Below are positions 6,230-44,887 of a stretch of 64,000 nt of DNA, piece by piece; position 1 is the stretch's first letter; every line of letters starts with the position of its first letter. The stretch covers positions 2,656,201-2,720,200 of the forward strand of contig NC_092670.1 of NCBI RefSeq assembly GCF_964355755.1. The letters are read 5' to 3'. This stretch comes from Antedon mediterranea. Taxonomy: Eukaryota > Animalia > Echinodermata. Under the pieces are notes generated by a model. The model ran no database searches, was not told the origin of the DNA, and saw nothing but the letters and a program-made list of their open reading frames with translations. Position numbers and translations under genes: made by a program.

Positions 6230-6665
6230 TTTCTGCTGCATTTCTGGGTGGTTCAGGTTCATGACTTCTTGATCGTTTTCTTCTTGATCGTTTACTTTTT
6301 GATCGTTTACCTATAAAAAAAACATAACAATACAGTATAGATTACCATGGGTACTCTCTATTTATATCTAAGTGGGCTTCATTTGTAACATTTATATTTT
6401 CAGGAAATATTGTTAGTCTTGTTAGTCCAAGTGTAAATACAGTATCCAGTTTTTATCCAGCATTTATTAAGTAATAGATTATAATTTACTTATGCGTTTA
6501 TTGGAAATTTGTTTGTAATTCTGTAAAACTGATGTCCTGATTTCCTAAATAAGTAGAATATTAAGACCTCAACTTTATTGAAATAAAACATACTTTCTGC
6601 TGCATTTCTGGATGGTTTTCTTCTTGATCGTTTACTTTTTGATCGATTTCTTCTTGATCGTTTAT
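6230..6665 (-). CDS. Two duplicated basic RS-like exons (6665-6594, 6310-6230)
   Basis: DKRSRRNRSKSKRSRRKPSRNAAE and KRSKSKRSRRKRSRSHEPEPPRNAAE; both phase 1-1 with GTATGT donors, inside a ~365 bp local duplication. Confidence 0.55.
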
Positions 6666-9600: not shown

Positions 9601-12600
9601 TTCATTACAATTTATATTTAGTAGTCCCACGGACTTCATCTTAGCCACTCCCCCGAGTGCTAAGGCCAAATTTATGATACCCTACTTTCTATGTAAGTTT
9701 AGTTACAGTTAGTTCTTGACGATAATACAACGAATTTAGGTTACACCCTTCGGCCGCGAAAACGTTTCTGTACAAATATGATACCGATTGGCTTTATTTC
9801 ATTCAACAGCGACCATAATCTCGCCAATTACAGGATAGATAAACTATTTTATTATTGATGTGCTTATAAATTAAGACTCATGTAAACAGCTTGATTACAT
9901 CATTTTACAGACAAACGAAACTTTTTTAAACCTACTGTTTCAATAACTGAGTATAATACTGTATACGTTTTCATAAGTAAGTGCATATACATTTTCGTGT
10001 TTTCATTGACGAGATTGTAATAGTAACTTCAGTAACTATTACAGTACTTATTTATTATACGACACAAGACAATTGTATCTGACAGGTACGTACATTATTC
10101 TAAAAAATAAGTCTAGATAGATCCCTTAGGCGTCATAAATCACAGGCCAACAAATCAGTACTCATGACAGAAATTCGACCCAGTTTGGTTCACACAAATG
10201 TTTACAGGAAGTTCAACACCACAACCGATGATTTGCCCTAAATATTTAGGTAGACTACAGTTTAATTTTTCACTGAATAGGAGCTTGAATTTCCGATTTC
10301 CATTTCGCAGAATGTCTAGGTCTATTTATTTAGTTTGGTTCTTATAATATATAAATACAATCAACTTTATTACTGCGGTTCCATCATCACCACCACGTGC
10401 CGCCCAATTCCCGTACATACATTTCCATTTCTCCCTAATTTCTTTAATCCACATAAATTAATGGTCCTTTATGGAATCCAGTATTGGTTTTGTTGTCTCT
10501 ATTTCTGAATACCCCAATTAGGGGGACACTTCCGTTTTTGTTTAGTGTCCCAAAAAAGTCCCCGTCCGTGGATTCTACTGTATTCGAGAACCATCTGTGA
10601 GCACCCCTAGATGGTACGCGAGCGAAGCGAGCGTGCCATCTAGTAGATATAATTTTAGTTACAAACACAAAAAAACTATGATATTAAATGAATCTCAATT
10701 TTGTAGCAAGTTTTTTGTTTCAAATTATTTAACAATAATTTTTATTTTTAAATGATTTACAGTATGGATAAAACTTAGTGTTAACCATTAATGCAATCAA
10801 TGCTAAGAAAAATGTACTGTGCTTGAGAAAGTTTGCTAAAAACATATTATTTATCCATGTCTAGATTTACATTTTTTTTGTTTAAAGTATTGTAGTGGTA
10901 CTGTTGGTAGTCTCTTGATGCTAGCAGAGTATTAAGAGTTTATTAACAATATGTTTAAAATGAGCTATGTGTAAGAAATAAAGGCAACATACCCAAGCTT
11001 GAACTTCTTGATTTTTCAAGCTCCCCTAAAAAAAGAATAAAAATACAAATCTCAGTTAAAATTACGGTACTTAGAAAATAAGTACGGTTTAGGAAGGCAT
11101 TTAAACAAAAATACAGATTCAGCCAGTCTAATTTGTGCTGGAAAAGCATTCCAGAACACGGGGCTTATATACTATAGTTACAATAGTCCATTCTGTCATT
11201 AACACTAAGGTTAGATGGACATGTTTATTACAGTTACCATACTGTATTATTGCTTTTTATATAATAATAATTGATTATTCTGTCTGATAATATTTTTCAA
11301 CATAATATGTAGGAACAATGACAGCAAATGCACAATGTGCCTTCAGTGGTTGCCAAATTTAGGGCATGTTACTTAAAACTTGGATGTAACCACTGTTTAG
11401 TTGATGAAAGAAAGTTAGTGCCTGTCATTGCCTTGTAAAACTTGTATTCAAAGAACACAACAATACCTCCAATAAGGTTATCTCCATTGAAGCTACTATT
11501 TCCAGGTACTTCGCTCGGTAGGATTGCAGATTTATTTTGAACTGTAAAAAATTAATTAGAAAAGGAAAATTAAAAATTTACACATAGGAACCGTAGACTT
11601 GCTTGGATCAACTCATACAGTTTTTTTAAAAAGTAAAGACAGACTATTTACAAAGATGCACTACTGTTGAAATATTGCATAAAAGCAATATAACAAGAGT
11701 ACCAACAATTGTTGATGAAAATTACCACAATCATCATGCACCGCAAAATGAAAACTACAGCAATTTGATCAAATCCATTATGTTTTGGTTGTTTTCTGAA
11801 TGAATGAATGATTTCTAAAAGTTTCTACAACCAGTATTTGTTCACTGTTGTGAATAGTTTGAGCCAAATTAATGTAGTAAATTAGATGGCAGTGAGCGAG
11901 AGTAAGTGGATAATGTGATGGCACTTTTATGAAAAGTGTCTTTTCAATTCTTCCAATTCTAAGTTATGTAATGTATAATAAAATACCTTTTAGTACTTGC
12001 ATAGGTCCTTTAAGTTCCATGCGGTTTAAGTTTTTAATAAATGGTTGCATATTTCCTTCACAGATTATGTTTCTCATCTCAAGGTCCATAATCAAATGCC
12101 ACTGATCATCATAAACCTGTTCTGCATCATTATAAAAGTCATTCATTTTCCGTATATCTTTCTCAGTCAGCTCTTCTCCAAATTGTATCAACATTAGTCT
12201 GTGAGGAGTGAATTTCAAAATTGGAATTTTTCTAACATTTTGGTTTGTTCCAATTTCTTTGTAAATTTTACTTGCCAATCCAAATTGTTCTGTTGCTTTT
12301 ATGGTTTCATAAAACAAAGTTAAGTCATGGCTTGTTAAATGTTCTCTCTCCATTAAGAAGTTTAGCAGCTGATTTGTGTTAGATGCTTTATCTAACTGAC
12401 CATTTGACAAGAGATCTTTATACAGAATTTTCAGCTTATTGAGTAAATGACGACGATCATACCACTGTGAAAATTTTAGTTTAATGATTTTAAAGTTAAC
12501 TTGCTCTGGAGTTTCTACAAAAATAAGAACAGAAACATTTAAAAAACAGAAATATTATGGAAAATAAACTATTTTTGGTATGTTTACAATACCAAATTAC

Positions 12601-15600
12601 AATAAATTAAATTGTCAATGCCTAAACAATATTGAAAATGACACCAATCCTTTTGAACAGAACATACTTTCTTGAGGACTATCTTCCCGGATTGATTGTC
12701 TACCTGTAAAGAAAGTAGATTGGTACAGTAGTTACAATATCAGTTTGATAAAAGAAATACAAGTTTTATATTATTCATTGCCTTATTAAAGTAGATATTG
12801 TTGATATTGAATACAAAACATACTTTCTAGAGGACCTGGTGGGCTAACGTCTTGTTTACCTGTAAATAAATGGTTTAATATTATAGTTGAAATGTCAGTA
12901 GTGTTATATCAGTAGTAGCAGGTACATGTATTTGCTGTAACTACATTTATTTATACACAGTTGTAGGATGCAGTAAAAGTATTTCTGCATTATGGTAGTG
13001 GATTACTGACTGATTACTTTTTTAATTTTTTATAATTGGACTACTGTACAAGGAATCATAGATAGAAACAAATTGTACAATTGTAAAATGAATTCATTGA
13101 ACCAGGGTCATCATCTCTAAATCACATGTGCCTCAATTGCCAAAATTTCAGTTCATAATTCGCATTAGTTAACACTGTTTAAATATGTGACACGTCCACC
13201 TCAATTTTTGGTTGTGAAAATATTTTAGTGTTTTCATCAAGCAATTAATAAATATCTGACAAGGCTGAAAGTTGCTGTCCAAGCTACTGCAAGTTTCCAA
13301 TCCATATTGTAGCCTTCAGTATAGGCTATCCTAAACTGGAAAATCATCATCAAATGCTTTCTGGTAAAATTGTGAGATTTTGACCCATCATTATGATTGT
13401 TGGACAGGTCTCCATGAGACTATACTTTTTTCTGAGTAAATATTGCATAATATCTATAAACAAGTAAAGTTTGCATATCTCAACTCTATTGACTCAACTC
13501 AACTCAATCCAAGTTTTTTTGGATGGGGAAAGGGGGGCTACTTGACAATGCAATAAAATAAGAAAAATGTTTTTACCTTGTTTTTATTGAAGGATATTCA
13601 AACTTTATTTAAATTTTCATTAAACCAATTGAGGTACATTCAATTTTTAGCAAAATCAGAGATGATGGTGACCCTGGACATTTCTGTTAAATTGGTTGCT
13701 TTGTCATGGAATGACATAATATAGAACCACAGTTGTTTTTAATCTCATTGAATCCCATACAACACATGTAACATACCCAAGCCTGAACTTCTTGATTGTT
13801 GAAGATCCCCTGCAAAAAAAAACTTTTATCTTTGAATTTCATACACAAATTGAACATTACTACTGCCAATTACTGAAGGTGTTATTGTTGAAAACACATT
13901 TTTAATAATATTTAGGGTGTGTGATCATACCAAACTTAATTGTTGTTGTTTTCAACAGTAGTTTTTAAGCTTCAAAGAATTGCTATCCACTCAGACACTT
14001 CAACTAAGAGCTTATTAGTAAAGATATCAGGGTCTTTGTAGTTAGTTTCCAATATTTTTTAGAAGTTCAAATAATGCAAGAAAGAATAATGAAAGAAAGA
14101 AATGACAACTATTGTACTTTTAGAGATCAAGATGGAGAGTAACTTTTATTCATGAAGCATTCTGGGAACTAAGAATTATGAAGTCATACAAATATTTTAG
14201 ATACAGATATGTGATAACACGTATATATATACCCTAATAATTTACTTTATTATTGCTGTTATCACTTTTAGTTTAATACAGTACTTACATACAAATGGTA
14301 ACTCATGTCTTTCATTTGGTTTTTGTAGTGTTAGTATCTTTGTACTAAATTCTTGTTTCTTTTTTTTCTTGTTCTTTCTTGTTACAATAAACATACTCCA
14401 ACTTTCAACTTTCCATATTTCATTAGCAGTTATAGTCTGTAAAACAATTTACATCTTGTTTAGATAATTACTCATGGTATAGAACGTTGGTACAATATGC
14501 TACTAATTTTTCCACTTAATGTGTACTGATTAAGATATTTTATAGTTAATTGGCTATTAAAATACATTTAGACAAACCAAAAATATGGATATTCCAGAAT
14601 ATTGCACACATTGTCTGTGACCAGCACACAATATGAATCTGCTTTATTTCTCTATCCACAATAATTTTTACTAAAAATTAAAAATAGCAAGTGTTTGCTT
14701 CACGTTTTTACTTGGGGTCATGTTGAATGCACAAAACGAGGTATTTTTCAGTGGTTACCTAACACATTTAATAGTGTGCTTGTTACTTGTTTGGATATTG
14801 ATTTATTTTATGATAGTTTAAATGTATTTAAGTCCGATCTTTGTTTATGTTGTTGTTGCATATTTGAATGTATTATTACCTCCGCCAAGGAGGTTATGTT
14901 TTCACCCCTGTATGTTTGTGTGTGTGTCTGTGAACAGCCTGGAGGCCACAGTTTTTATCCGATTCTCACCAAATTTATCAACAATGATCTATGCCTCAAA
15001 AGCTCGGACGAGTTCGAATTTGAGGGGAAAAGGTCATAGGTCACAACTAACAAAAAAACTATTTTACTGCCTAGAGATGACAGTTTTTATCCGATTCTCA
15101 CCAAACTTAGCCACAATGATCAATGACACATCATATAATTGTGGTTAAATTTTGAAGGGTCAGGGTCAAAGATCAAGGTCCACAAAAAACTAAAAAAAAA
15201 GAAATAAAAAAATAATAAAAAAAAAAACCTCAGTGGGAACTGAGAGGCTGGATACATAACCATTACCATTTCCTCACTGAGGACAAATATTAATACAAAA
15301 TACAAAAATTACACCACACTGTCATCCACAACTTTGTAGTGTGCAGTTAACATATTTACACTTAGAACTAATAAAAAAATATGTAAAAAAAAAATATTCA
15401 GGGGGCATTTTATGTAGGGGAATTTTACAGTAGGCGGAGGTTTGTACTCTCGGAGTACCCTCTAGTTATAGTTTATTATGTTTAGATTCAACCTGTTAGT
15501 GGCGGTTTCATCGCTGTTGGTTGTCAACTGAATAAAATAAAATAAAATAAATTTTAATTTCTGAAATTCAGTAAACAGCTTGCATACATCATAAATTTAA

Positions 15601-18600
15601 AATTTGACCCTGTAGAATTTTATTCAAATATTTTGATTGATGACGATGAATGGAATGTTCCAAAGGATCCTCAGGATATTCCGAAATAAATCATTGAATA
15701 AAACCAGTACTGTATGCAAAAACATTTTGGGGTTATAATGAACTATTTTAGAATCTGTGTACTTTGTAAAAAAAATGTTGCTCAACAGCTTTAACCAAGT
15801 ATTTGGGGTTTTCAGGGAATTTTTTAGTGTCGGAATTGATGAACGAAGATTCCTCGAACCGTTCGATTATGATAGCCTAAGATTAAACTCTAGGCCATAG
15901 GCTATAGGTATTTTTTTCACTGGTTAAGAGTATTTCCTCATTGGTACCTCCTCCTTCCTCTTCCTATTATTTTTATACTCTATAATTTATCCTAATAATT
16001 TAACATTTATTGAATTAATCAAATTGTTTCATTCATAGATTTTAATATTTTATTTATTAATCTATGACTTTGCACTTATTTGTATAATCATACCTGTGTT
16101 GGAGGCTTCACATCCCAATCTTCTTTGTTTTCTACTTCAATGTCCATATCAGTGTGCAACAAATCTATATATTTGGGAATTTGTATAGGTATTTCCCCAA
16201 ATAAGTGACTCTCTCTGAATACCTCCTGAAAGTAATGTATAGAAGGAAATCTAGATATAGTCCGGAAGACAAGTGAGACTTTAGTAGATGCAACCCTGGG
16301 GAGTTTGAAGGGTGGAAATCACTTTTCCAAGCTATAGAGACCATGCCAGGCTGCAGGCAGATTTCATCTACATCATCTAATTTTTTTGGATGCCACTTGC
16401 AGTATTTTTTTTTCAATTTGTGCCCTTCTGGAAGAAGAGAGAGCCTCTAACAATGCTGGCTATATGCTTTTATTGTAGGATAGTCAACTTACATTTAAAA
16501 GTAGATACATTTTTTTTAAAGTATAGTAGGTTTGACATTGATTTTCATGACTGAAGCAAATACTCTATTCATTGGGTGGTGACATATTATACAAATTTTC
16601 AATTTTATTACGTATTGAATTACAATCAAAATAATATACAGTGTGACTTTTACAATAAACAAACAATAAATTACCTTTTCTCTATCAGTGTCCCAAGTTC
16701 TTACTCGAAGTTGATACTTGTTAATCAATACCTTTCCAAACACACCTAACCTTGCTGTTTTTTTACAAGGACCTCTATTTGTTATTGTAGGCCTACCAGT
16801 AAGACCATATTTAGAAAAATGTTTTGAATGTACACAACACTGTCCATTGTTTAAAGAAAAGGTTATGTCATCATCTTCATTACTGTCCAGTTTTATTCTT
16901 CTCCATTCACCTTGACACGTTGTAACAAGTAAAGTGAATTCCCAACACTCTTCATCTACAGCATTATGTGGAAATGACAGCAAGCAGTGGTTTTTAAAGA
17001 CTGTGCCTGGTGGTCCACATCTAACAACAGGTGAAAGTATTGTTTCAAGAGGATCTGATAACAAATCACTAGGAAAAGAAGTGTTTTCTAGTGATACTTC
17101 AACATTCAATCCTTCTTCAATTGCTCCAGGATTTATCACCAACTTTGTGTCTTTATCCTTAAGATAGAGAGTTTCGCCTTTGGAGTCCACAATTAACTCC
17201 ACAATTTGGTCTGTGGAATCAAAATGCTTTATAAATTTAATATATGTTGTAATTATATGTGGTTTATTAATATTATAATAATAATAATATTAATAATAAT
17301 AATAATTGCCATGTATTTTTTTTGTGTGCTGTCTTCTGTTCTATGATTTAGATGTTAAAATCTCTTAAAGGTGAAGCTTTAAAATTACCACAGTACATTA
17401 CGGAATAACTGTTAAGCAAATACACAAACATGGTAATTACACTTTTGTTATATAATTATTTTTCTTTTTCCTCCTCACCTGGTATATAATTAAAAATGTT
17501 TGTGTTTAACTCATAGTATCTCTAAAATATTTTGGCATTGAAAAGTCCATATTAATATGCTCTCTAAAAGAATAGCTTACAATACCTGGCTCTGATGCAA
17601 AAAATGTAAACGGTTTTTGTTGTTTTTCAGTTGATTTATAGGAAGAACCTATTAAAAAATAAAATAAGAACTATAATCACTAAACAAATTTTATTATCCT
17701 TAATACTACATTTTGGAAAGCTGTCCATAAAGGTCCTTCTTCTAATTTCAGTTTCATAAATTATCAATTTGATATGTTTGTAAAACTAAAATAAGGAGTA
17801 TGCACATATCAAAATTGGGATAGTTTCTCATAATATTTTTTAAAAGATGCTTTCACCTTCATTTTTAACAAATCAACAAAAAATATGTAAAACAATTATT
17901 AATTTTAAAAAACTTTAAAATAATTTTATTTCAATTATAGGAATCATGCGTTATTCTATAAGTAAGGTATACCTGCTAGTTGTATTTCATATCTTTTTTC
18001 AACAATATCTTTCTGAAACATATCAGCAAGATTGTTACTGCCATGTTGAATTAGTGCAATGCAAAATACTTCAAGTTGATTCCATTGGATATCAATATTG
18101 GTTCTCCAAAAATTCATCATTTCTTTGGTAGATGTAATTAGCTCACTTCCAAACTTTGTCACCGTTAATGAGCTAAGACCCAGATGAACACCAAACAATT
18201 TCCAGTTATGAATTTCTTCAGATACTTTTCTAATAATTTGATCATCCACGTACCCTATGATAGAAAAATTAGCTTTGACTTTGAATTATTGGCTATTCCT
18301 AAGTAAATTAACTTTTAAAATTTGCAATCCTTAGATTTTTAATGCCATAAAAAACCTACTAAATCTTACCTTCGTTATGAGATCGTGATGGTATAGCTAT
18401 AAAAATAAATAAATAGATATAAATTTGTCAATCAGTATACATCTTTATAATATTACTAAAAACAATCTCAAAAACTGTATTCCAAATTTTTTTTAAATTC
18501 AACACTATTGGACCATACCAAACTAAAACTACTTACTTTCATCTTGAGATTTTAAAGTTTCTGTAACAGTAAATATATGTAAATTAATCAATAATGCAGG

Positions 18601-27600: not shown

Positions 27601-30600
27601 CATACAGTATTTTTTGTTTTATTGTTTTATTATCATTGTCTGCCTATATTTTAACGATTAAATGTAGTGCCCCAATGCAACCAATTGGTTGCAATGGCAT
27701 TTATGTTGTTATATTGTGTATAAGGTATGTTTTTCCGTCATTAGTAAATTCCCTTAAATCCGTTTTAATAAAAATGGCTAAACTGAGAGGAAATTATGTT
27801 TAAATGCATATTGAATCTAAAATTTACACAGATATATACCCCGGGATTGAAGATAGAGTTTCAATTCAAAACAATCTCATTATACTTTTCATCTCATTTT
27901 CTGTAGATTGTTTTAAACAACATTCAAATCAAATAAAAAATAACATTTATTTCCAAAATAGTGGCATCACCAATAAAGCAAATGCTTGTGTCAGGGCTGC
28001 CAATACAAAACAGACAAAAACAAACAAAATATATAAATATATAAATCACATTTAAATAAATAAATGTCAAGGTTTTCTTACCGTTTCCTTAGTAAAGAGT
28101 TAATAGTAGAAGTTTTTCCTACTCCCTCAAGACCTACAAAAATAACTCTGCCCTGTTTAACTTCAGTTTTTCCTTCTTTCAGAGCTTCATTAAATGCATT
28201 AACTGCTTCTGGTCCTCGAGCCCATATCTCCACAGGTAAGTCTATATACAAATTAATTAGTATAAAAATGAATATTTTATTTCGTTGAAGGGAGAGAATA
28301 ATTTCATATAATGACCGATTGACAGATTCATTAAATTCAAAGAAAATTAGGACAGTCAGGCTTTTCTCCTCATTTAATGAATGAATACTTAATAATTAAT
28401 TATTTGTTTTATTTTATTGTTATAAAGTAAATTGTTACAGTATATGAACTTTAATTTTGTGATAATCATCAACATCAACTTCATCTACTGTAGGCCAATA
28501 TAAAAGGATACTACAGCTCACTATGTCGGTCGGTTTGTCGGTCGGTTGTCGGTCGGTCGGCAAACAATAACTTGAGCATGTGACTGCAGTCATCTATATG
28601 GCCTTGTTATATTTAACAACACATTTAGGATTGGACATTTAGTGTTTTTACAATGAAAATAATATTCTCCATTGAACAAATTAAAACAACAAACAAACTA
28701 TATAACTCAGATTATGGCTGCACTGAATAAATTATACATGTCATGCTCTGTATGTTTGTTTTTGGTGGTGCAAAATATGGCAAAAATATATATGTGTATA
28801 AATGCATTGTGTTCACTTTATTGAATTACTCTTTCCTTTTTGGTAATGAATGTAAATTAAGTGGGTCAAGAATAAAAAGTCAAAATCTAGTTCATTTTAG
28901 CTGTCAAATTGGAGTTAATTGTCCAAGCACAACACTCCTAGATCCACCACAGAGAATATTGAAATTTTTTATTGTATAACTTCGACCAAATGTTGTTTTA
29001 TTTGTTTAGTCTATGTGCATATGTTGGTCAAAATAAATGTTGAATTGAAATGAAATACATCCCTTGCTCATGCAACTGCTCCTCGGAACTGTGCTTGTCA
29101 ATATAATAATATTGTTATTACATTACATTGCCTGCTAGATTTAAATTTAGTATGTCAAGAATCAACAATCTGAAAATAATAAATATCACATAAATATAAT
29201 CACAATAACTTACTATCAATATTGCTTTGCCCTGGTAATTGTAATCCTCTTTTTGCATATTTTCCTTGTAATCCTCTTTTTGCATATTTTCCTTTCCTGT
29301 TAAACGATATGTTTCTCAATGAACACTGATTGGCAGCATGGTGGATGTCGTCATCTGATAGATTGCAATCCACCATGTTAAGCGTCATCAGCTTAGGAGA
29401 CATAATGAGTAATGAACTCAGTGAATTAACATCAAGGTTGTGAAGGTTACTATCAGAGATATCGAGATGATATAATTCTAATTGAACTTGTTTGAGAGAA
29501 CATTCTGAGACAAAGTCATGAAATACATCACGTGATAGATTCTGAATCCAAACACCGTCACATCTATCTTGAATGCCTAAAATGTGTGCAATAACTCTTC
29601 CCTTTCGCTCCAATGCCATCTTACTACAAAAGTCACTGATACCAAAACCATCATATTGCATACAATACAATTGCATAATTAGACGTATGAAATGCCCATC
29701 ACATTGTACACCTGGACTAATGTAATCAATAAACATTCTTATGGAGGTTAATATATCATCCAAATGATTATTTATTTCTAAATCTTTACTTGTCATGTAA
29801 TTAATTAATTCATTTATCACAGCATCTTTATGTTGTTTTTTAACAAAGTTTAAATCACTTGGCAGATAGCGATATGTTGACAAACGATTTGTAACCCAGT
29901 GCTTGAGGAAACCGCCAGCTTTATCACCAAGGAAACCAATTGCAAATTCTCTTGCTCTGTATAAATGCTCACTCTCTTGTATCACCTCCCACTCATCATC
30001 ATCCAATGGTGTAAGTAATGTTCGTACATCTGAACATTCATTCTCCATACCTTCACTTTCACATAATTTGCACAAGTAAAATCCCACCAATGACTCTACT
30101 ATCAACTTGTGAGGAGGCATAAAAATGTTATCAAATTTAGATTTTGAATTTGACACTTCTTCGTAAACAAACCCAAGTTTTAAGGCCATATCAACCATAG
30201 CTTTGTTCGAATGTTTAGTCAAATCCGTTTTGTTTATTGAAAGTTGGTTTACTTTTAAGCTATCATACATACATTTCCCTAATAAAATCATAGCATTTAC
30301 ATACTTCACTGGTATTTTTTCAAATTCAGAAATCTTTGTTATGTTTTCTCGTTTCTGATTGATTCTCGACTGATTCAAAATACTACGAAAGAATTCTTTG
30401 AAGAGGTCAGTTTTATCTTCGGGGAGACTTTGATTATCTTCCCACAATATACAAAGTGTAAGAAGTATCATCGGGTTTTTGCACATCGCATACGCTTCAG
30501 GATGTTTTAGCTCTCGCTCTCTTAAGCGACGCATTCCAATACGCTGCACCATCAACGTAGGCCTAACTGTTTCAAGATGCGCGTCAGTATCTAATTCCTT

Positions 30601-33600
30601 TCTAAGGGATTCTCCCAATTGTGGTTTTTCAAAATACTCAAAGTGTTTGTCGATATACTTTCCTATACTCTCATTGTTGAATCCCTTAACTCTTACATGT
30701 ACATTACATTCTTTCATGAATTCATTAATATTTTCTGATCTTGAAGTAAGAATTACAGTACTGTTTTTTAAGTAGATCTTTCTAAATAGTCCGAGTACGC
30801 TTGGATTATTAAATCTCAATTCTTCTAGTCCATCTAGTAATAACACCACTTTATCGTCATATTTGTTGATGAATTTTGAAATCAACCATGGATCTTCTTG
30901 GAGATCTGTCTCTAAATAGAAATCTACCATATCAATTTGCTTTACAATTAAATCAATGATGTCGTCATCTCTATGTAAATCCCGTACACTTAAAAGAAAT
31001 ACAATTTTACCTTCAAATGATTTAATTGATTGAGTAGCCGTAGCCCAGTTGTATGATAAATGCCTTAATATGGTAGTTTTACCTATCCCACCCTCTCCAT
31101 CTATAAGAGCTCTACATCCAGGTGTGGAGCTGATCACATCTACCACTTCTGTTAATGTTGTTGGTTTGCTTCCTTTATTCTTTTTAGCTTCTTTACGTAG
31201 TTCCATATCGGTAAACATCTGTGAAATGTCAACACTGTATCTACCACGCATTGTTGCTGGTGTAAATATACTGGCCTGACTGCACAGTTCCCTTTGTCTT
31301 TGAAGCAGATATTCTTCTATCTTTTCTAAATATAAAGATTTTTAGCTTGATTAAACTATATAAAGTTTTATTAATATATTATTACATTTATTTATTATGT
31401 GGTATTTCATAAAATTGTTGAATGTTTTGCATTCCTCTAATTATTTTTATGTTTTATTTTTGTATTAATTAAAATTACTACTTTATTGTTATAATGGTTT
31501 TTGTCACGCAATCATAATTAAGCTTCATATAGTGAGTGTGACCCAATATAATTTATGATTATGGTAATAATTTTCAGAATATGAAACTTTAATTTGAAAA
31601 ATATGCTCAACAGAGGGCAGCAAACAGAAAAATATAATTATCACAAAGGATTTTTATGACAATAGAAATTAAGTTGCACTTAGTTTTAAAGTAAAAAAAT
31701 AAAATAAACCTAAAACGTATGAGTGTGAAATTATTCTTATTAAAAACTTAAATATATAACATTAAGACATATTTTTATTTATCTTAGTTATAACACTCTC
31801 TTTATCCATATCAATGACGGTTTGGTGCACTGTATAGGCATACGAACCTAATTAGCCTATTGAAAGAATATTGAAAGAGCGGATATGTTTAGGCCTACTG
31901 TACTTGTAAAATTATCATTAAATCCAAAATCGGTTTATAAATTCTAGCATCTTATATAGTTAGTTTACTTCTTCAGTTTGTTTGATTTTTATTACTATCA
32001 TAATGATGCCATTTGTATTCAAACATATACTTCAGAGGTAAAAATTTAAACTTTAAGGTTTACTATAGACAATTATCATGGGCCCACTGATTTATTATTA
32101 TTATACAGTACGTGATATACAGTATGAATTAAAAGTGTTCAACGTGTTTGATATTATAAGTGATACACTGTACAGTCATACCTGTTTGACCCCAAGGGTA
32201 ATGAAATACATCCAATACTGATAAAATAGTTCAGAAACCTTATAATTGTGTACAAAGCAATTATTGTAGCAGCTTGATTGGCCGGCTTTGAAATTCAATG
32301 ATTATATTGTATAATTATTGTTGCAGTTGATTTATTTTTGACAATCAGTGAATTCAATAACTGAATTATAAAATGGATCTGATTTGCATTATTATAGTAA
32401 ACATTACAAGTAAACTCACCTGTTTCTGATTTAACCTCTTTGTTCATTGGTATCACTGGCTTTGAGTCTGTTTAATAAGCAAATGACAAGAACTGAATTT
32501 TTACAAGAAAACCAATGGATAATGGCATAAATTAAGTATGACAGTTAAGAAATATAATTCAGTAATGTGTGCAATATGAATGGTAGTTTGTGTGAATAGT
32601 ACATAATGAATAGTAAATCCTATTCATCTCCAAAAATTTATTTTAAAACTTGCTTGAAAAAGTAAATTTATTTTCTCTTACCTGCCATGTTGTCAACTTT
32701 TTCTGTTTTCGTTTCTAAAAAAACAAGAAATGTTGTATCAAATGATAAATCAATCAATAATACAGGATAAATCATGAATTTCAAAATATCTTTTTATAAC
32801 AAACAATCATATAAATAAATAAATCCGAAACTAAAGTGTTCCGGATGGCTCATTTAATTAATTGAAATATAAAATTAATTCAGAGAGGTTTGCAAAATGT
32901 CGACGTTGTATCTATGTCTCATTATTACTGATGTAAATTCACTGGCCTATCTGCATAATTCCTTTTGTCTTTGAAGCAGATATGCTTCTATCTTTTCTAA
33001 ATATAAAGAAAGATTTTTAGCTTCATTAAACTAATAGTATAAATATAAATTGAATTTAATTTCATTAATATATTATTACAAATTGTTATTCATTCTTTTT
33101 TTATTTATGTGGTATTGACTAAACTATATAAAGTTTTATTAATATATTATATTGTTTGAAGGTTTGCATGGCGAATTCAAATGTTGATATGAGTTTGCGG
33201 TATGCCACGTATGTTAGTTCTGAAAAGAAACCCAACAGTTTTTTCAGAACTAACATACGTGGTGTACCGGAAACTCATATCAACATATTAATATATTATT
33301 ACATTTATTTATGTGGTATTTCATAAAGTTGTTAAATGTTTTGTGTTCCTCTAATTATTTTTATGTTTTATTAATTTAAATTATCTAACTTTATTGTTAT
33401 AATGGTTTTGTCACGCAATCATAAATAAGCTTCATAGAGTGAGTGTGACCCAATATAATTTATAATATGTAATAATTTTCAGAATATGGAACTTTAAATA
33501 AAAAGATGCTCAACAGAGGGCAGCAAACAGAAAAATATCATTATCACAAGGATTTTTATGACAATAGAAGTTAAATAAAATCAACCTAAAACTTGTATGA

Positions 33601-36600
33601 GTGTGAAACATATCTCTATTTTCCATATCTATGATAGGCTTGGTGCACCGTAGGCATACAAACTGTAGTCCTATTGAAAGAGAGGATATGTTGACTATGT
33701 TGGAAATGATATGATTTAGACAAGGATCCCATTTACTATACTTGTAAAATTATCATTAAATCTAAAATCTGTTTATAAATTCAACCTGGACAGTTTTCTG
33801 ATGAATTAAGAGTACTTTAACATCTTATATAGTTTGTTACTTCTTTCAGTTTGTCTGATTATCTTTGTCTAGGGAAGGCAACAACTTATCTTAATGATTT
33901 GACATTTGTTTTATTCAAACATACTTCAGAAGTAAAAATAGAAACTTTAGGGTTTGTTATAGATAATTATCTTGGGCATACTGATTAATATTATTATAAG
34001 TGATATACAGTATAAATTAAAAGTGTTAAAAGTGAAATACTTATAAACAATTAGTTACAAAGACTGAAAAGCATAAAAAGATAAGCTCCTCCTTAATTTT
34101 GCTTTGATTGAGTCATTTTGTTTGTTAAGTTTTTTCGGTTTCAACTCTTTTTATCCACAACATGTCATTAATCAAGCAATCAAATTCAGATTTGTACTTT
34201 ATAGACAATATTTTAAAAAAAATTGACTGTATGAGTAAGACTTAATATATGATGAGTATTAAAATTAAATGCATTAAGTAGATAGTAGAGGCTAAACGCT
34301 ATTTAGTGTGTTTTTAATACATTACACTTTTCAGTAACTTAAGGGTTAATTGTATATGTTTTTCAGTCTATTATATTTCACTAGTTTTGTGTACTATTTG
34401 ATTGAATTTGATTCCAAAGATAAGAGAGCAATGTTTAAATACGAAACCTTGTATGTTTTAATTTTATAACGGCATACAATGTGTAACGCAAAATGTATTA
34501 TATATACTAGAGGGTGAGCTCGCTTCGCTCGCTCCCCCTCTAGGAAGTGTAGACGATGGTTCTCGGAATGATAATGTTCTCCTTATACGTTTTCTGTCGG
34601 TTACCATTATTGAAAATGCTTGACATTCGTAAAACTAAACTACTTTGTTTCACAGTGTTTTAGATGATTAATAACATTTTAAAGTACAGTTTTTATTGTT
34701 TGGTAGGGCCCTTTGGGGAGGCGGAGGTCATTTGAGGGAGGTGCTTTAATTCGAGGGATATATGTTAAATTTTGTAGTTTTAATAATATGGTAACATTTA
34801 TAATAAAATGAAATCCTCTAATAGATATGAAAAGTGCTAAAAAAGAATAACAAATGCTTGGTAAATTGTAGCAGTGCAGTGAATTCTACTACAAATAGTA
34901 TAATTGTGTTGTTATAAATATGTGGATTGGTGGGGGGGGGGGGGGGTTTATTATTCAAAGTGATGTTTTATTGGAGAGGCGTTTATTCAAATGAATACCA
35001 TCCTAATAATTATTAATACATTATTTAATTTAATCATCTTTTAAAACTAACTGCCGTGACAGAGTGGGCCCAAGAAAGAAGACATTACGGCTTGCAACAT
35101 GGGCAGACATCTCGGTCCTAACGGGACACAGGAAGATAGCCTACAGTTATTCCTGCAAGCTTACTCAATAAAACTCAACTATCGGGATTTCACTCGAAAA
35201 ATGTCTTATCATCAAATCTCCCTATGTAATTTTATAATACTATTCCCCACAATATATTCTGATTCTTTATGGCGTATATTTAATTTGATCTTTATTAATT
35301 TGCAGTATAATTCCTATTATTTAACTACTGTACCTTCACACACGCGCGGTATGTTTTAAAATAAACAAAAAACTGAAATGGCTATGATTATATCTGATTT
35401 TTTTTTCGTCTTCCAAAGGGACACTGTATTGATTGATGGAAAGTGCCTGTTTCCAGTCACCTTTAGGGTCAAATCTATTATTTTAACTGCTCCCTTGTGT
35501 ATAAAAGAGAGAAAATATTTGAAACCAGGTTGTTGCAAGGTGAACTTATCTTAAACCCGGAAATTACTATGACCAGGAAGAATTGAAATTGAGATGAAAA
35601 TCTAATGTTGAAATCATAAATTGTGTTAAAAAACTCTTTATAATATCTTCCTAATATAGAAATATGGAACAATAGCGTCGCTGTGAACACTAATGTTATC
35701 AAATCTACGTTTCGCGGTACATCTCAGATAGATAAGGTAGGTATCCAAGGCGGAGATTTGTTCCGAAGTTTTTGCATTGTGCTCGCCTATGTCAGAATTA
35801 ACCATAATTTATATATAGATAACCAAAAACACACTTTTCCAAACCTTATAATATATACAACCGATTTATTCAAATTGTATTTAAATTTATGTGTAGGATC
35901 ATCAAATAATGACACTTTGTTGGAAATGAAGAGTTTTTTAAGAAGAATGTGCACGAGTGGAGAAATAATACTGTATGAATGAAAGGAAGTAAAGAGAGAA
36001 GCGTTACAGGGGATGATTTTGTGAAATGAAAGTTAATGAGAAAAGAAGCAGAGGCCGGGAATAACATAAACTACAGTAATAACAGAATGGACAGCAATGA
36101 GTTATGAGGAATGCGCATTCCTCTTGATAGGCCTATAATATTGATTAACTCAAATTAATGTTGGAACCAGATGATATGTGTGTTATTTATTTTACAAATA
36201 AAGTGCAACTATTTGCCTTCCTTTGTTTGTTTTAGTAGTTTAAAAAAACTTAAAAATAAATTTAGGAACTTAAAAAGCTCATATTGATTGCTCTATTGAT
36301 GGTTGTGCGGCTAACATTTTAACTTAACTTGAACTTTATTATTGCAATTCATTATATAAATAAATTGAAGTTGAACATAAAATATCGCATATAAAAAATA
36401 CAAAACAAAGCACACAACACCTAATCAAAGATAAACAAGATACATAAAGAACAAATTAAATACACATGCCGGTATTTTACCAGTTCATGAAAACATAATG
36501 GTTTGTAATATATGATTTTGATCTGTTAGTTTTACATAATGGTTAATAAAATTTGCTACTGTATGTATTTTGCAAATTCAAAATCATTCATGATATCACG

Positions 36601-37890
36601 AGTATGTATAACAAGCGTTTACATAGTTCATTATGTAAAATCAACATCTAAATGCATTCTTTTCTTTTTTTTTAAATAACCTATACTGCATGTTAATCTT
36701 CTTTTAAGTTCATACTGCGTATGTTTTATTTTAAAACAGTATCGTAATTTTCAAACCGTCCTATTTTTGTATATTTAGGAGGAATTGTGCGTAAATAAAT
36801 ATGAGTCTGAATTAAATAATAAACACTCTTAACTAATGTTATTTCTTTTGCGTAATTAAAATTAATGCGACATCGCGGATATTCAAATTATAATTTTTTA
36901 CTAGGAGATACTTGTTTGGAACTCACTGCTTCACCTGCATCTTGTTCATGTTCATTATTATCATTTAGAAATTCTTTCATTATTTTTATATGGTTAATAC
37001 CAGATGATTATTAAAATTATACTATATATTAAATAGACAGTAGAAATCTAAAAAGTAAAAGCCGACAAATTGAAAAGCCTAAGAAATTGTGACGGATTTT
37101 CATGTCGGTTTATATGTTTTCGATTAAAAACTAAAATAAACTTTTGTTACATACATTTTTTTTCATAAATAATTTCAATATAAAGAATACGGTATTTAAA
37201 AAGAATATCTAACCATGTTTAATGGAAGTGATCTCAACGTGTAACAGTTATTATATTTAATTTATTATATTGAATGAAGGTTTTTAGTCATTGAAAACGA
37301 AATCATCACTAAATCTATCTCATTAAAATAAATAGTAAAATGAAGGCAAAGAAATACATACCTGTACTAAGTAGGCCGAGTTCTTTCTGGGCTCGTTCTC
37401 CAAGAAGACGTGCAAACTCATTCAACTCTTTTGGTAAAAGTAGTTTCTTCTCCAATTCAAATATCACATCCCAGAGGCTTTTATTCGGCTTTAGTCTATA
37501 CACTGCTGAAACCCTCCGTACCGCAGCAGGAGATCCAGATTGTCTCACAGCCCGAAAGAGTCGTTCTCGTTCTGGTTTTAACTTATTTTCACCAGTACAT
37601 TTGATATTGTTATCTTCTATATACTGACGTACAAGATGTTCAGCATCTTTTGGGCCGGTTAATCTGGTAATCTCCAGCAAAAGGTTGACATCAGTTGGTG
37701 TAATAACACCACAGCCACCTTTGCTATCGAGCTTGTTGAATAAATCATGAGCCATATATGGTGCATCATTAAGGTCAGCTAGTTGCAGATGATCACCTAG
37801 GCAAAATCTTAACAATTTGTAGTCTTCGCCTTCATAATGCTTACCAAGTTTGGCTTTCAACACTCTAAACTTACTCTCAAGGTCTGACAT
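6230..37890 (-). CDS. Multi-exon gene for a ~2370 aa DED-NACHT-LRR-ROC-COR-Death-ZU5-UPA-DED fusion protein (3' end uncertain)
   Basis: Hand-built exon chain, open frame and matching phases at all junctions, AG acceptors, GT donors (one GC): 37890-37362, 32714-32682, 32467-32420, 31325-29214, 28241-28082, 27569-27466, 27192-26929, 26079-25769, 24313-24224, 23891-23715, 23521-23276, 22836-22648, 22254-22096, 22000-21725, 21327-21244, 19126-18907, 18560-18537, 18396-18370, 18254-17973, 17648-17586, 17210-16675, 16225-16094, 14436-14289, 13809-13777, 12859-12824, 12703-12668, 12514-11987, 11541-11467, 11025-10993, 6665-6594, 6310-6230. No transcript evidence. Confidence 0.75.
7272..10238. mobile_element. 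Possible Harbinger-type non-autonomous element containing the 830 bp tandem array
   Basis: TAA|GGGCAAAATTCGGT ... ACCGATGATTTGCCC|TAA; short imperfect TIRs only. Confidence 0.4.
7527..9490. repeat. Near-identical tandem duplication, 830 bp period, about 2.4 units
   Basis: Identical ORF translations at 8424 and 9254 (same peptide from 7615); an internal ~69 bp duplication is present in units 2 and 3 only. Confidence 0.9.
10580..10645 (+). repeat. Hairpin-CTAGT terminus of a Helitron/Helentron-like repeat
   Basis: CTAGATGGTACGCGAGCGAAGCGAGCGTGCCATCTAGT; related inverted copy at ~34506-34570. Confidence 0.5.
11987..12514 (-). CDS. C-terminal tandem DED-like exon
   Basis: FKIIKLKFSQWYDRRHLLNKLKILYKDLL...LLNFLMEREHLTSHDLTLFYETI and HRLMLIQFGEELTEKDIRKM...LIMDLEMRNII; 528 nt phase 1-1 exon, similar in size and layout to the N-terminal DED-like exon. 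Confidence 0.75.
14289..17210 (-). CDS. ZU5-UPA module (exons 17210-16675, 16225-16094, 14436-14289)
   Basis: VDSKGETLYL...LVINPGAI...LSPVVRCGPPGTVFKNHCLLSFPHNA is ZU5; HFS at 16821-16813; KKTARLGVFG...QLRVRTW then beta-rich UPA-like sequence. Confidence 0.88.
14873..15467 (+). mobile_element. Helentron-associated (HINE/DINE-like) non-autonomous element
   Basis: Subterminal inverted repeats ACCTCCGCC / GGCGGAGGT, GT-rich microsatellite after the 5' end, 3' hairpin GTACTC-TCG-GAGTAC followed by CTAGTT. Confidence 0.7.
17973..18254 (-). CDS. Death domain exon
   Basis: IIRKVSEEIHNWKLFGVHLGLS...KEMMNFWR...LEVFCIALIQHGSNNLAD follows the Death-domain pattern; symmetrical phase 1-1 exon of 282 nt. 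Confidence 0.85.
18907..23521 (-). CDS. End of ROC and COR domain exons (6 exons)
   Basis: LPIKWL, LLEYLHDIVEILYYPDDEALRDIIVID, LMEKFGLM, FYVLSRL and YLPDDLFQR match COR-domain motifs of ROCO proteins. Confidence 0.85.
19278..20937. mobile_element. Foldback-like non-autonomous DNA transposon built from 21 bp repeats
   Basis: TIRs start TACGAAAGCCCATTAATGCCATTTTAAGTATATG and extend ~280 bp; 6 bp duplication CAATCA (19272-19277, 20938-20943); interior is a 21 bp minisatellite in both orientations. Confidence 0.88.
20985..21140 (-). mobile_element. Possible Deu/Nin-domain SINE fragment
   Basis: Minus strand has GGATAAGGACTTATAAC...AACCCTG...TTCAGAAGAGTAGGGGG, recalled as similar to the conserved central domain of these SINEs; not searched. 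Confidence 0.4.
23715..28241 (-). CDS. ROC GTPase domain exons (6 exons)
   Basis: Pre-ROC LPVEIWARGPEAVNAFNEALKEG, G1 RVIFVGLEGVGKTS, G2 VTDGI, G3 ISDFGGQPIYH, FILSWIRSI, G4 PPVLLIGTHLN. Largely missed by the ORF track because the exons are short. Confidence 0.88.
24357..25275 (+). mobile_element. Dispersed ~920 bp repeat with a terminal hairpin (copy 2, intronic)
   Basis: Shares blocks such as gactgcttagaggttaaatataagattt and cgaggagccgaatcaccggatgttcagcgc with the reverse complement of 3950-4907. Confidence 0.75.
26183..26399. repeat. Palindromic Penelope pLTR-like repeat with a degenerate hammerhead core
   Basis: Inverted arms aaagtttgcagtacacca...gggtttctc / gagaaaccc...tggtgtactgcaaacttt; CTGAGGAcGAT...ATCGAAAC at 26311-26341; internally deleted relative at ~33154-33285. 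Confidence 0.6.
29214..31325 (-). CDS. Large exon: NACHT NTPase, helical/winged-helix region and about 2 LRRs
   Basis: Walker A GEGGIGKT (31098-31075), Walker B VVLLLDGLEE, sensor-1 ILTSR, CKNPMIL, winged-helix FMPPHKLIVESLVGFYL, LRR-like LYHLDISDSNL and LMTLNMVDCNL. Donor GTAAGT at 29213. Confidence 0.92.
32880..32996 (-). pseudogene. Dead duplicate of the 5' end of the NACHT exon
   Basis: EKIEAYLLQRQKELCR*ASEFTSVIMRHRYNVDI versus EKIEEYLLQRQRELCSQASIFTPATMRGRYSVDI at 31325; the flanking intron (~33000-34030) is also homologous to ~31330-32140. Confidence 0.85.
37362..37890 (-). CDS. First coding exon: tandem death-effector-like (DED-like) domains
   Basis: MSDLESKFRVLKAKLGKHYEGEDYKLLRFCLGDHL...DLFNKLDSKG...ITPTDVNLLLEITRL resembles the DED pattern; second weaker copy ...SLWDVIFELEKK. 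Acceptor ttttgcag before 37910 implies an upstream non-coding exon; donor GTATGT at 37361. Alternative ATG at 37902. Confidence 0.7.
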
Positions 37891-39404
37891 TTTTCGAAAC
37901 ATGCGTTTGTCTGCAAAAACAAATTTTAACATGACGAATATAATCAGGAATATGTTTTATGTTGTATTTTTTATTTTTGCGCTACTTATGTCTGTCTAAT
38001 TGTATGTTACCGTCATGAGCTGGCTACAGCATGTTAGAATTCTATTAGAAGGGGTTCGAACTAATTAATCTGCCAGTAAAGCATTTTTTAGAATTTCATA
38101 TATTTTTAGAAGATCTGTTTTCAGAGCTACAGTCTAAACTGCTCTTTTTATATATAGCTTTAACACACCTCCTAAAATGCCCCTTTTTCACACATTTTGC
38201 AATGATTAACACACATTAGAATGTTACAAATACAGTACACTGTGCCGAGACCACTTAGGACTACATTGTGGTATTCCAATTTCAATGTTTTTGTTGAATA
38301 TTTTATTATTGTATCATCAACCTGTGTTCTTTCTTTAAGGTTTTTTTTTCAATAATAGAAGAATGTGATCAACTGTATCGACTCATTTGTATATAATATA
38401 TCTAAAAAAAAAAACATGTTCCGATCCTTCTTCCTGCTTATTTAGAGATTCAATCCATTCAATCACTATCAATGTTTGGGAATCTTATATTGGTCTATAT
38501 TGATTAATATTAATATAAGCTGAATGACGAATGACAGAACATCATGTCAACGTCATTTGCGTGAACAAGGCTACTGAAAGTAGCTGAAACGTAGCAAGTA
38601 TGTACTTGTCAACTGGTTTAACTAAAAGTTAACCTTTATTTATTTAAATATTCATTGAAACCAGATGAAATTTTTTGAGAATAAGCTGAATTGTTTAAAT
38701 AATCCGCTAATTGATTCTGTATGATCCGTTCCAGAATTCTAGAAACATGAACAATTACAAAATTGTCTATAGTTATTTAAAATAATCACCAAGTCGGATA
38801 CTGTACATCAGTATCAATAATTGTAAATGAAAATGTTTTCTTGGATCATTCCAAGAAAGAAAGAAGTAAATGAAATGTATACATTCTGGATTATTCTTGC
38901 TTGAATTTGAATCTAGTTTTCTAATGGAAAACGTCTGCCCTTACCAAAGCAGAATGCTTAAATAGCCTTCGCTAACCATTCGCTAGGCATTCGAATGCTA
39001 ATTTACAGGTAATTTTTAGAATTTAGGCATTCATGGTTAAAACCACTTAAATGGAATGCTAAGAAAAGTTTCCAAGCATTCTTTAGGAATGCTTACAAGA
39101 GTCAATAAGCATTCAGAAGCTATCCCGAATGGCTGGTAGTGTCAATGCTAAAGATCATTGCAAGCATTCGGTGGAGATATTCTGAATGGTAGTGTGAATG
39201 CTAAGAACATTGGTAGCATTCAGGAGATATTTTGAATGGTAGTGTGAATGCTAAGATCATTGGTAGCATTCAGGAACAGATGTTGAATGGTAAACAGGGA
39301 AATAAGTGAATGCTCAACCAATCAGATCAATCCTCACATACTTCCAAAAAACAAGGGTGTCACGAAAGCTCAGACCACGAAAGCTCAGACCCCCTAAGGA
39401 CCTA

Positions 39405-44875: not shown

Positions 44876-44887
44876 AAAGGGGACTAG

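What the first reader, a model, noticed from the sequence alone, without database searches (positions are those of the whole stretch)
6230..37890. Giant NLR-ROCO-ZU5/UPA fusion: two P-loop switches and up to five death folds in one protein
Seen: 31 exons splice in frame to give DED-like x2, NACHT, 2 LRRs, ROC, COR, Death, ZU5, UPA, DED-like x2. The key NACHT-to-ROC junction has a consensus GTAAGT donor (29213) and a phase-matched acceptor (28241) under 1 kb apart, and the ROC exon has no start codon of its own. Established: NACHT NLRs, ROCO proteins (LRRK2, DAPK1, MFHAS1) and ZU5-UPA-death-fold proteins (PIDD1, UNC5, NLRP1/CARD8) are normally separate families. Inference: a composite innate-immune or cell-death receptor coupling an ATPase oligomeriser to a GTPase dimer switch with caspase-8/FADD-type outputs. 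I do not know of a described protein with this architecture, but could not search.
Basis: partly seen in the sequence, partly recalled or inferred. Interest (0 to 1): 0.93.

Follow-up and report, generated by a model that had tools for sequence, protein, structure and literature searches.

The report
Feather-star NLR–ROCO–ZU5 chimeric immune gene
A feather-star-like genome places an immune-receptor (NLR) exon, an LRRK2-type GTPase module and a ZU5/death-fold module predicted to cut itself in one unbroken in-frame chain of exons, which would be an unusual composite cell-death sensor if the untested splice joining the NLR to the GTPase is really made.

Summary
The 31-exon chain is real: 2369 codons, no stop, 29 GT-AG introns and one GC-AG, 3' end open. 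Domain calls hold: NACHT and ZU5 above Pfam cut-offs; ROC-COR through 67-77% identical crinoid relatives; C-terminal DED pair cFLIP-like; N-terminal DED pair, Death and most of UPA weaker. The locus is a mosaic of two expanded crinoid families, DED-DED-NACHT-LRR NLRs and ROCO cassettes that swap partners at phase-1 introns.

The key NACHT-to-ROC splice is untested. For it: the stop seen in relatives is missing, and the only decent donor near the junction is phase-matched (1-4% by chance). Against it: 11 of the 19 nearest NLR models stop just after the same short LRR; none of 61 NACHT relatives carries ROC; skipping the NACHT exon is also in frame and matches a relative's model. No transcript across the junction was seen, but the RNA test was weak.

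New detail: ZU5 carries an HF/S motif at the PIDD1/CARD8 self-cleavage position, which would free a UPA-DED-DED fragment. Odds: NACHT-ROC splice about 0.55; full giant protein about 0.4.

The parts
37362..37890 (-). Exon 1: N-terminal DED-DED-like pair (aa 1-176); preceded by an acceptor at 37910, so possibly not the first exon
   Evidence: Pfam DED E 0.0014, below cut-off; 53% to the N-terminus of crinoid NLR P0017 and 43% to the four repeats that precede ROC in P0028; no death-fold PDB hit
32420..32714 (-). Exons 2-3: phase 1-1 linker micro-exons (32714-32682, 32467-32420); exon 3 can splice in frame to either the NACHT exon or the ROC exon
   Evidence: E3/E4 spanned by 9 relatives; a homologous linker sits directly before ROC in P0026
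29214..31325 (-). Exon 4: NACHT (Walker A aa 280-288, Walker B aa 364-372), helical domains, 2-3 LRR turns, cap and a disordered tail
   Evidence: Pfam NACHT E 8.5e-19, above cut-off; AlphaFold mean pLDDT 80.8, last 33 residues mostly under 50; Foldseek best hits NLRC4 E 3e-19 and NOD2 E 1e-18
29200..29213 (-). Decision point: phase-1 GTAAGT donor at 29213 versus read-through to TGA at 29202-29200 (911-aa NLR)
23276..28241 (-). Exons 5-11: ROC GTPase domain (G1 aa 944-952, G3 aa 1175, G4-like THLN aa 1261-1264) with a roughly 180-aa low-complexity insertion, running into COR-A
   Evidence: 85% identity excluding gaps to P0028, which has Pfam Roc E 6e-11 above cut-off; junctions spanned by relatives
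18907..22836 (-). Exons 12-16: COR domain; ends at a GC donor (18906)
   Evidence: Pfam COR-A E 4.3e-5 on exon 12; relative P0125 (67% over aa 907-1662) has COR-A E 1e-12 above cut-off and matches C. tepidum Roc-COR 3dpu E 7.7e-6
17586..18560 (-). Exons 17-20: linker micro-exons and Death domain (18254-17973)
   Evidence: Pfam Death E 0.014, below cut-off; ROC-COR-Death relatives P0126, P0127 and P0123 align collinearly from COR into this domain
16675..17210 (-). Exon 21: ZU5 domain and first UPA strands
   Evidence: Pfam ZU5 E 4.3e-16, above cut-off; UNC5B 3g5b E 1.2e-7 over residues 19-170
16813..16821 (-). HF/S motif (aa 1930-1932), predicted self-cleavage site
   Evidence: the Phe aligns to Leu137 of the 3g5b chain; motif role from PMC3210808 passages
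14289..16225 (-). Exons 22-23: remainder of the putative UPA domain (16225-16094, 14436-14289)
   Evidence: Open, phase-matched exons; no Pfam hit on either; UPA identity inferred from position
12668..13809 (-). Exons 24-26: phase 1-1 linker micro-exons
   Evidence: exon 24 duplicates exon 29 at 88%
11987..12514 (-). Exon 27: C-terminal tandem DED pair
   Evidence: Pfam DED E 1.7e-6, below cut-off; cFLIP tandem DED E 0.011 across both domains; 55% to the C-terminal pair of ROC-COR protein P0031
6230..11541 (-). Exons 28-31: short Ser/Arg/Lys-rich phase 1-1 exons; no stop found, 3' end open
   Evidence: exons 30 and 31 are duplicates at 89%
32895..34034 (-). Decayed duplicate of the NACHT exon start and its upstream intron, inside intron 1, with an in-frame stop
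   Evidence: blastn 70-90% to 31224-32146; tblastn hits; sequence

Best explanation
This is a crinoid locus assembled from phase-1 exon cassettes, likely one gene, whose longest transcript would splice a DED-DED-NACHT-LRR immune receptor onto a ROC-COR-Death-ZU5-UPA-DED-DED tail, likely alongside a short NLR-only form and a NACHT-skipping ROCO form. Shown: the open in-frame exon chain, the domains, and the swapping of the same 5' DED-linker module between NACHT and ROC in relatives' gene models. Inferred origin: recent recombination in a cluster of NLR and ROCO genes placed a normally terminal NACHT-LRR exon ahead of the ROC exon; it lacks the stop found in relatives and now ends in a usable donor 12 nt before a new stop, so splicing and polyadenylation compete. 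Inferred mechanism: ZU5 cleaves itself at F1931/S1932, as in PIDD1, NLRP1 and CARD8. The C-terminal UPA-DED-DED piece (at least 438 aa) would stay held by the N-terminal part until NACHT oligomerisation, ROC-COR dimer cycling or degradation of the N-terminal part frees it to seed a DED filament and activate a caspase-8-like protease. The self-cleavage model also applies to the NACHT-skipping form.
For: No stop or frameshift in 2369 codons. The 29213 donor is the only GT scoring 1.5 or more, in any phase, between 29700 and 28250. A random intronic read-through meets such a phase-1 donor before a stop in 262 of 20438 starts (1.3%), or 773 (3.8%) at the weakest score in the model. Its crude score (2.4) lies inside the 0.6-8.4 range of the other donors, and exon 6 uses the same GTAAGT with an equally weak exonic side at a junction spanned by 6 relatives. 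The window runs 33 residues past the LRR cap, where 11 of 19 nearest models stop within 0-10. The ROC exon needs an upstream coding exon; in relatives the residues before ROC come from DED pairs, linkers, caspase, ankyrin-Death or TAZ/KIX modules. ROC-COR followed by Death (P0126, P0123, P0127) or by a DED pair (P0031, P0103, P0125) occurs in relatives' models. The HF/S motif sits at the end of ZU5, at the position described for PIDD and CARD8.
Against: 0 of 61 NACHT relatives carry Roc, COR or ZU5 (25 scanned; 36 by precomputed Pfam, 8 of them rescanned). Of 170 fetched proteins, 62 match the NACHT part and 99 the ROC/COR part; the one overlap (P0019) is an LRR alignment running on at 24% identity. 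None matches ZU5. The E3-to-E5 skip is in frame and mirrors P0026. The tail weakly resembles a decayed LRR unit (6 of 500 shuffles score as high), and crinoid LRR units usually carry Gly at the codon that supplies this GT, so the donor may be inherited rather than selected. Exon 4 holds 9 other phase-1 GTs scoring 0.6 or more, one at 4.8, so the crude score cannot validate a site. The ROC G4 position reads THLN without the usual Asp (consensus recalled), as in most crinoid relatives, and Walker B has DGLEE where 55 of 60 relatives have DGLDE; nucleotide cycling is untested.
Confidence: 0.48

Rival explanations
1. Shared 5' end, two products, no fusion. Exons 1-3 splice either to the NACHT exon, which stays terminal (911-aa DED-DED-NACHT-LRR NLR), or skip it to reach ROC (DED-DED-ROC-COR-Death-ZU5-UPA-DED-DED, at least 1665 aa). 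The 29213 donor is cryptic and essentially unused.
For: Nearest NLR models (79-83% identical) have the same short LRR and stop after it. The skip is in frame. P0026 joins the same linker directly to ROC, and P0138 joins a near-identical DED-linker to NACHT. The closest ROC relatives begin with DED pairs, including the exon-1 type in P0028.
Against: It needs the phase-1 GTAAGT before the stop to be chance (1.3-3.8%; higher if the LRR-like tail is allowed for). The AATAAA sites at 29002 and 28973 are uninformative at 3.2 per kb of intron. P0026 is a 149-aa automatic model whose transcript support I could not see.
Confidence: 0.32
2. Two or three neighbouring genes or fragments. An ordinary NLR ends at 29200; the ROC-COR-onward exons are an orphan left by a recent rearrangement; the DED pair at 12514 may start or belong to a further gene. 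The long frame reflects universal phase-1 cassettes, not one transcript.
For: Phase-1 boundaries make almost any order of cassettes in frame (19 of 30 introns). Exon 27 resembles N-terminal DED pairs of crinoid NLRs at about 40%. A decayed NACHT duplicate lies in intron 1. Several relatives' ROC models are truncated fragments (P0026, P0027, P0028). No relative spans any junction after exon 16.
Against: All 27 exons from ROC onward are free of stops, with intact splice sites. No in-frame ATG precedes ROC, and exons 24-26 hold no in-frame Met before exon 27. Exon 27's best match (55%) is a C-terminal pair behind ROC-COR.
Confidence: 0.15
3. Assembly chimera: two members of multi-copy families were joined near the end of the NACHT exon.
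For: Both families have many near-identical relatives. None of the 32 contig pieces listed (14491 more not shown) bridges the end of the NACHT exon.
Against: Contigs of DNA run X1 match ROC exons and adjoining intron with 0-2 differences (28149-28539, 28769-29053), though X1 may be the window's own source. A relative has NLR and ROC models with close accession numbers on a contig of the same length (adjacency not verified).
Confidence: 0.05

Closest known systems
NLRP1 / CARD8 / PIDD1 (ZU5-UPA-death-fold proteins; PMC3210808, passages read)
   Same: ZU5 with an (H/S)F/S motif at its end, followed by UPA and a death-fold output. The long form would share NLRP1's order: death fold, NACHT, LRR, then ZU5-UPA-death fold (NLRP1 architecture partly recalled).
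   Different: Output is a tandem DED rather than CARD or Death. ROC-COR-Death lies between LRR and ZU5. Only 2-3 LRR turns. Cleavage is untested.
Crinoid DED-DED-NACHT-LRR NLRs (automatic RefSeq models of Antedon mediterranea and Anneissia japonica, e.g. XP_071945178, XP_071952324)
   Same: 76-83% identity over the NACHT exon, same linker-to-NACHT junction, same short LRR and cap in the nearest models.
   Different: They stop at or shortly after the LRRs; none of 61 carries ROC, COR or ZU5.
Kinase-less crinoid ROCO proteins (e.g. XP_071952312, XP_071944699, XP_071945975; uncharacterised models)
   Same: 59-77% identity over ROC(-COR); same N-terminal boundary; DED pairs or Death domains on either side.
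   Different: No NACHT before ROC and no ZU5-UPA after COR in any fetched.
DAPK1 / LRRK2 / Trichoplax ROCO proteins (PMC4104024, passages read)
   Same: ROC-COR core; COR followed by a Death domain as in DAPK1 (recalled). [quoted passage not shown]
   Different: No kinase here; the ATPase is a NACHT with NLR fold. The Trichoplax figure could not be seen, so whether those ATPases are STAND-type is unknown.
Brown-algal exon-shuffling ROCO genes (PMC11378527, passages read)
   Same: Expanded ROCO family, exon shuffling, proposed immune role.
   Different: There single phase-2 LRR exons shuffle in LRR-ROC-COR proteins; here whole domain cassettes shuffle at phase-1 introns.

Membership tests
NLR (NACHT-LRR) | NACHT domain above Pfam cut-off with Walker A and B | tested here: met
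   E 8.5e-19, 68.4 bits vs cut-off 26.7; motifs at aa 280 and 364, Walker B with a D-to-E variant
NLR (NACHT-LRR) | NLR fold with C-terminal LRRs | tested here: met
   Model pLDDT 80.8 with 2-3 LRR turns; Foldseek NLRC4 and NOD2 E about 1e-18, TM about 0.47
NLR (NACHT-LRR) | N-terminal death-fold effector | tested here: inconclusive
   DED E 0.0014, below cut-off; no death-fold PDB hit; 53% to the N-terminus of another crinoid NLR
NLR (NACHT-LRR) | ATP-dependent oligomerisation | not testable with these tools
   Needs biochemistry
ROCO | ROC and COR in tandem | tested here: met
   Transitively: P0125 (67% over aa 907-1662) scores Roc 8.7e-12 and COR-A 9.9e-13 above cut-offs; exons 5-16 junctions spanned by relatives. 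The window's single exons score below cut-off
ROCO | Intact G1, G3 and G4 nucleotide motifs | tested here: inconclusive
   G1 and G3 intact; G4 position THLN lacks Asp, which 2 of 12 relatives checked retain
ROCO | GTP binding and COR-mediated dimerisation | not testable with these tools
   Needs biochemistry
ZU5-UPA (FIIND-like) autoproteolytic module | ZU5 domain | tested here: met
   Pfam E 4.3e-16 above cut-off; UNC5B E 1.2e-7
ZU5-UPA (FIIND-like) autoproteolytic module | HF/S or SF/S motif at the end of ZU5 | tested here: met
   HFS at 16821-16813, aligned to the UNC5B Leu before the last ZU5 strand
ZU5-UPA (FIIND-like) autoproteolytic module | Complete UPA domain | tested here: inconclusive
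   First strands align to UNC5B; exons 22 and 23 have no Pfam hit; single-sequence fold of exon 21 failed, pLDDT 33
ZU5-UPA (FIIND-like) autoproteolytic module | Actual self-cleavage | not testable with these tools
   Needs expression
Single NACHT-ROCO fusion protein | Transcript spliced across 29214/28241 | tested here: inconclusive
   Not among 15 of 304 joints shown, contigs only, RNA status guessed; no further read test was obtained

The most novel reading that the evidence does not exclude
One polypeptide of at least 2369 aa joins an NLR ATPase, a ROCO GTPase and an NLRP1/PIDD-type self-cleaving ZU5-UPA module with DED outputs at both ends. It would be the visible tip of a crinoid cassette system in which DED pairs, NACHT-LRR, ROC-COR, Death, caspase and ZU5-UPA are recombined at phase-1 introns and by alternative splicing, with ROC-COR and NACHT used as interchangeable switches behind the same DED-linker exons.
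Probability: 0.4. Interest if true: 0.8.

Novelty: new variant of a known kind. Interest (0 to 1): 0.6.

Why it matters
If the long form is made, it is a natural hybrid of three signalling designs usually studied apart, and it would test directly whether ROC-COR GTPases act as immune switches equivalent to STAND ATPases in animals. That idea has been raised for bacteria (PMC8195603 passages: the STAND NTPase can be displaced by the AP-GTPase) and for brown algae. Even without the NACHT splice, ROC-COR-Death-ZU5(HF/S)-UPA-DED-DED was not found among the relatives fetched, and it predicts an NLRP1-like released fragment with a caspase-8-type output in an echinoderm. If neither long form is made, it is an ordinary rearranged immune-gene cluster.

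Tried and rejected
RNA test. No RNA holder was listed among 10 runs. Four runs were laid on 21000-32800 (4 of 10 runs, contigs only). No joint at 29214/28241, 32420/28241 or 32420/31325 appears among the 15 of 304 joints shown, which are dominated by DNA runs. The low depth at 28880-29273 in X8 (1.2) and X9 (0) is within intronic background and was not used either way. The fall in summed depth past the LRR cap was not used as a copy number. Exons 16-31 were never laid. No second read test was obtained.

Genome context. No whole genome is held for the window.

Structure and atlas. The single-sequence fold of exon 21 was unusable. The ESM Atlas could not be reached. No homologue search was anchored on ZU5, so its absence from crinoid ROCO proteins is weak evidence.

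False positives dropped. P0019 (NACHT+ROC) and P0010 (UPA) are alignment run-ons. P0107 has NACHT but no Roc. P0038 and P0044 at E4/E5 lack NACHT. Poly(A) signals are at background density. My first exon boundaries were off by 1-3 nt and were corrected.

Literature. Nine searches combined NACHT/NLR with ROC, COR, ROCO, ZU5, crinoid or Antedon; none of the listings or passages read describes NACHT plus ROC-COR in one protein. The library lacks most subscription journals; figures and supplements were not seen (the roughly forty animal ROCO architectures in Figure 2 of PMC11378527 may bear on novelty). Earlier scan notes held no NACHT+ROC+COR finding.
Full report
Setting. The window is 33% G+C animal DNA. 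Its NACHT exon finds named proteins only from the feather stars Antedon mediterranea and Anneissia japonica as strong hits, so the source is a crinoid close to these. No whole genome is held.

Observation. I rebuilt the model from coordinates. After correcting boundaries (then), 31 minus-strand exons from 37890 to 6230 give 2369 codons with no stop; 29 introns are GT-AG and one is GC-AG. The donor at 29213 and the acceptor at 28241 are both phase 1 and 972 nt apart. Read-through of that donor ends after four codons. The model has no stop at its 3' end and an acceptor before exon 1, so both ends are open. 19 of 30 introns, and all module boundaries, are phase 1. This matters because it makes many alternative joins in frame too.

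Domains. NACHT (E 8.5e-19) and ZU5 (E 4.3e-16) pass Pfam cut-offs on single exons. The NACHT exon folds with mean pLDDT 80.8 into an NLR with 2-3 LRR turns; its last 33 residues are mostly below 50, and Foldseek returns NLRC4 and NOD2. ROC and COR are split over 12 exons and score weakly alone, but relatives 59-77% identical over the region pass the cut-offs and span all 11 junctions from E5/E6 to E15/E16. One such relative matches the solved C. tepidum Roc-COR. G1 and G3 are intact; the G4 position lacks Asp, as in 10 of 12 relatives checked. The Death exon is weak in Pfam but aligns collinearly with ROC-COR-Death relatives. The C-terminal DED pair matches cFLIP over both domains. The N-terminal pair rests on one weak DED hit and on crinoid relatives. 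UPA is supported only for its first strands.

What the relatives show. Both halves belong to expanded crinoid families. The nearest NACHT models (79-83%) have the same short LRR, so the short LRR is not a scar of fusion. 11 of the 19 nearest models (two are isoforms of one gene) stop 0-10 residues after the LRR cap; the other 8 end elsewhere and did not match my cap pattern. The window runs 33 residues past it. None of 61 NACHT relatives lists Roc, COR or ZU5. The ROC exon found 93 relatives, of which 27 were scanned, and a search of 1023-2920-aa proteins with a ROC region added 9 hits, 2 already known. ROC starts at the same boundary behind DED pairs, caspase, ankyrin-Death or TAZ/KIX modules, never behind NACHT. 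A near-identical DED-linker 5' end precedes NACHT in P0138 and ROC in P0026, and window exon 3 is of that linker type. All of these are automatic gene models whose transcript support I could not see, and the searches were limited by length windows and word sharing.

The key junction. For use of the donor: it is the only GT scoring 1.5 or more between 29700 and 28250; a random intronic read-through meets such a donor in phase 1 before a stop in 1.3% of 20438 starts, or 3.8% at the loosest threshold; and an equally weak GTAAGT donor (exon 6) is backed by relatives. Against: the tail scores weakly as a decayed LRR (6 of 500 shuffles as high), crinoid LRRs usually have Gly at the codon giving this GT, exon 4 has 9 other phase-1 GTs at 0.6 or more, and skipping exon 4 gives an equally open 1665-aa protein. 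Whatever its origin, a consensus donor facing an orphan acceptor 1 kb away is likely to be used at some level (inference). I put the splice at about 0.55 and the whole 31-exon product at about 0.4, because no relative spans any junction after exon 16.

Reads. No listed run is on record as RNA. Laying 4 of 10 runs on 21000-32800 showed 15 of 304 joints, none at the junctions of interest; this is not evidence either way. What the contigs do cover: X1 matches the ROC exons and adjoining intron with 0-2 differences but may be the source run; X7, from another organism, matches COR exons and introns at roughly 95%; three X8 contigs (RNA is a guess) match exon 14 at about 89% and end exactly at its donor, as spliced paralogues would.

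Mechanism. ZU5 ends in HF/S at 16821-16813. In the UNC5B alignment the Phe pairs with Leu137 of chain 3g5b. If the chain starts at residue 541 (recalled, not checked) this is Leu677, which PMC3210808 names as the counterpart of the CARD8 cleavage-site Phe; the same passages state that PIDD cleaves at HF/S after each ZU5. Cleavage would leave a UPA-DED-DED fragment of at least 438 aa, analogous to the UPA-CARD fragments described in the abstracts listed. Release by switch activation or N-terminal degradation, and caspase-8-like recruitment through tandem DEDs, are inferred by analogy and untested.

Comparison with print. What I saw: passages of PMC9334734 (Aplysia TIR/Death-ROCO proteins), PMC3210808, PMC11378527, PMC4104024, PMC8195603, PMC7159879 and PMC9573974; other papers only as search listings. 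Invertebrate ROCO proteins with death folds are known, and Trichoplax ROCOs are reported with AAA-family ATPase domains. None of the passages or listings from nine searches describes NACHT with ROC-COR, or ROC-COR with ZU5-UPA, in one protein. Figures, supplements and most subscription journals were not seen.

Verdict. The sequence features are real and the locus is an exon-shuffled mosaic of NLR, ROCO and ZU5 cassettes. The headline single protein is plausible but unproven, with a well-supported alternative that uses the same exons without fusing NACHT to ROC. New variant of a known kind; interest 0.6.

Noticed in passing
window 42576-51092 (+): Full-length Ty3/gypsy-like LTR retrotransposon: 619-bp LTRs 99.4% identical with TG...CA ends and an ATGG target-site duplication; gag-like ORF 44048-44872 and pol-like ORFs 44888-46543 and 46516-49578 in different frames. 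Family label from recalled motifs. A recent insertion about 5 kb upstream of the gene.
   Followed up: partly
window 19200-20950: About 1.7 kb of short-period AT-rich satellite inside intron 15; it gives long spurious ORFs on both strands.
   Followed up: no
window 430-1882 and 5400-5900: Broken reverse-transcriptase-like fragments on the minus strand, resembling a Penelope-type element (recalled resemblance).
   Followed up: no
window 4022-4910 and 24353-25240: Two copies (79%, opposite strands) of a high-copy interspersed repeat, one inside intron 8.
   Followed up: no
window 7525-9532: Tandem 830-bp repeat, 98% identical, inside intron 29.
   Followed up: no
window 39403-42058: Inverted repeat of about 840 bp, 91% identical, just upstream of exon 1.
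   Followed up: no
window 59802-60929 and 62740-64000: Minisatellite arrays with periods of about 49 and 66 bp.
   Followed up: no
window 6179-6060 and 6544-6490: A good acceptor lies about 50 nt after the donors of exons 30 and 31; splicing there would give a stop after 15 or 40 residues and close the 3' end, but such introns are unusually short.
   Followed up: partly
proteins P0030, P0031, P0028, P0127, P0164: Crinoid gene models with caspase-ROC, TAZ-KIX-ROC-COR-DED, four DED pairs before ROC, COR followed by many Death domains, and DED-OTU-NACHT: the cassette family itself looks undescribed.
   Followed up: partly
protein P0149 (XP_071952324): Begins with the same residues as window exon 3 and the start of exon 4 but ends at the equivalent of aa 683; possibly the truncated counterpart of this NLR in the related species.
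   Followed up: partly
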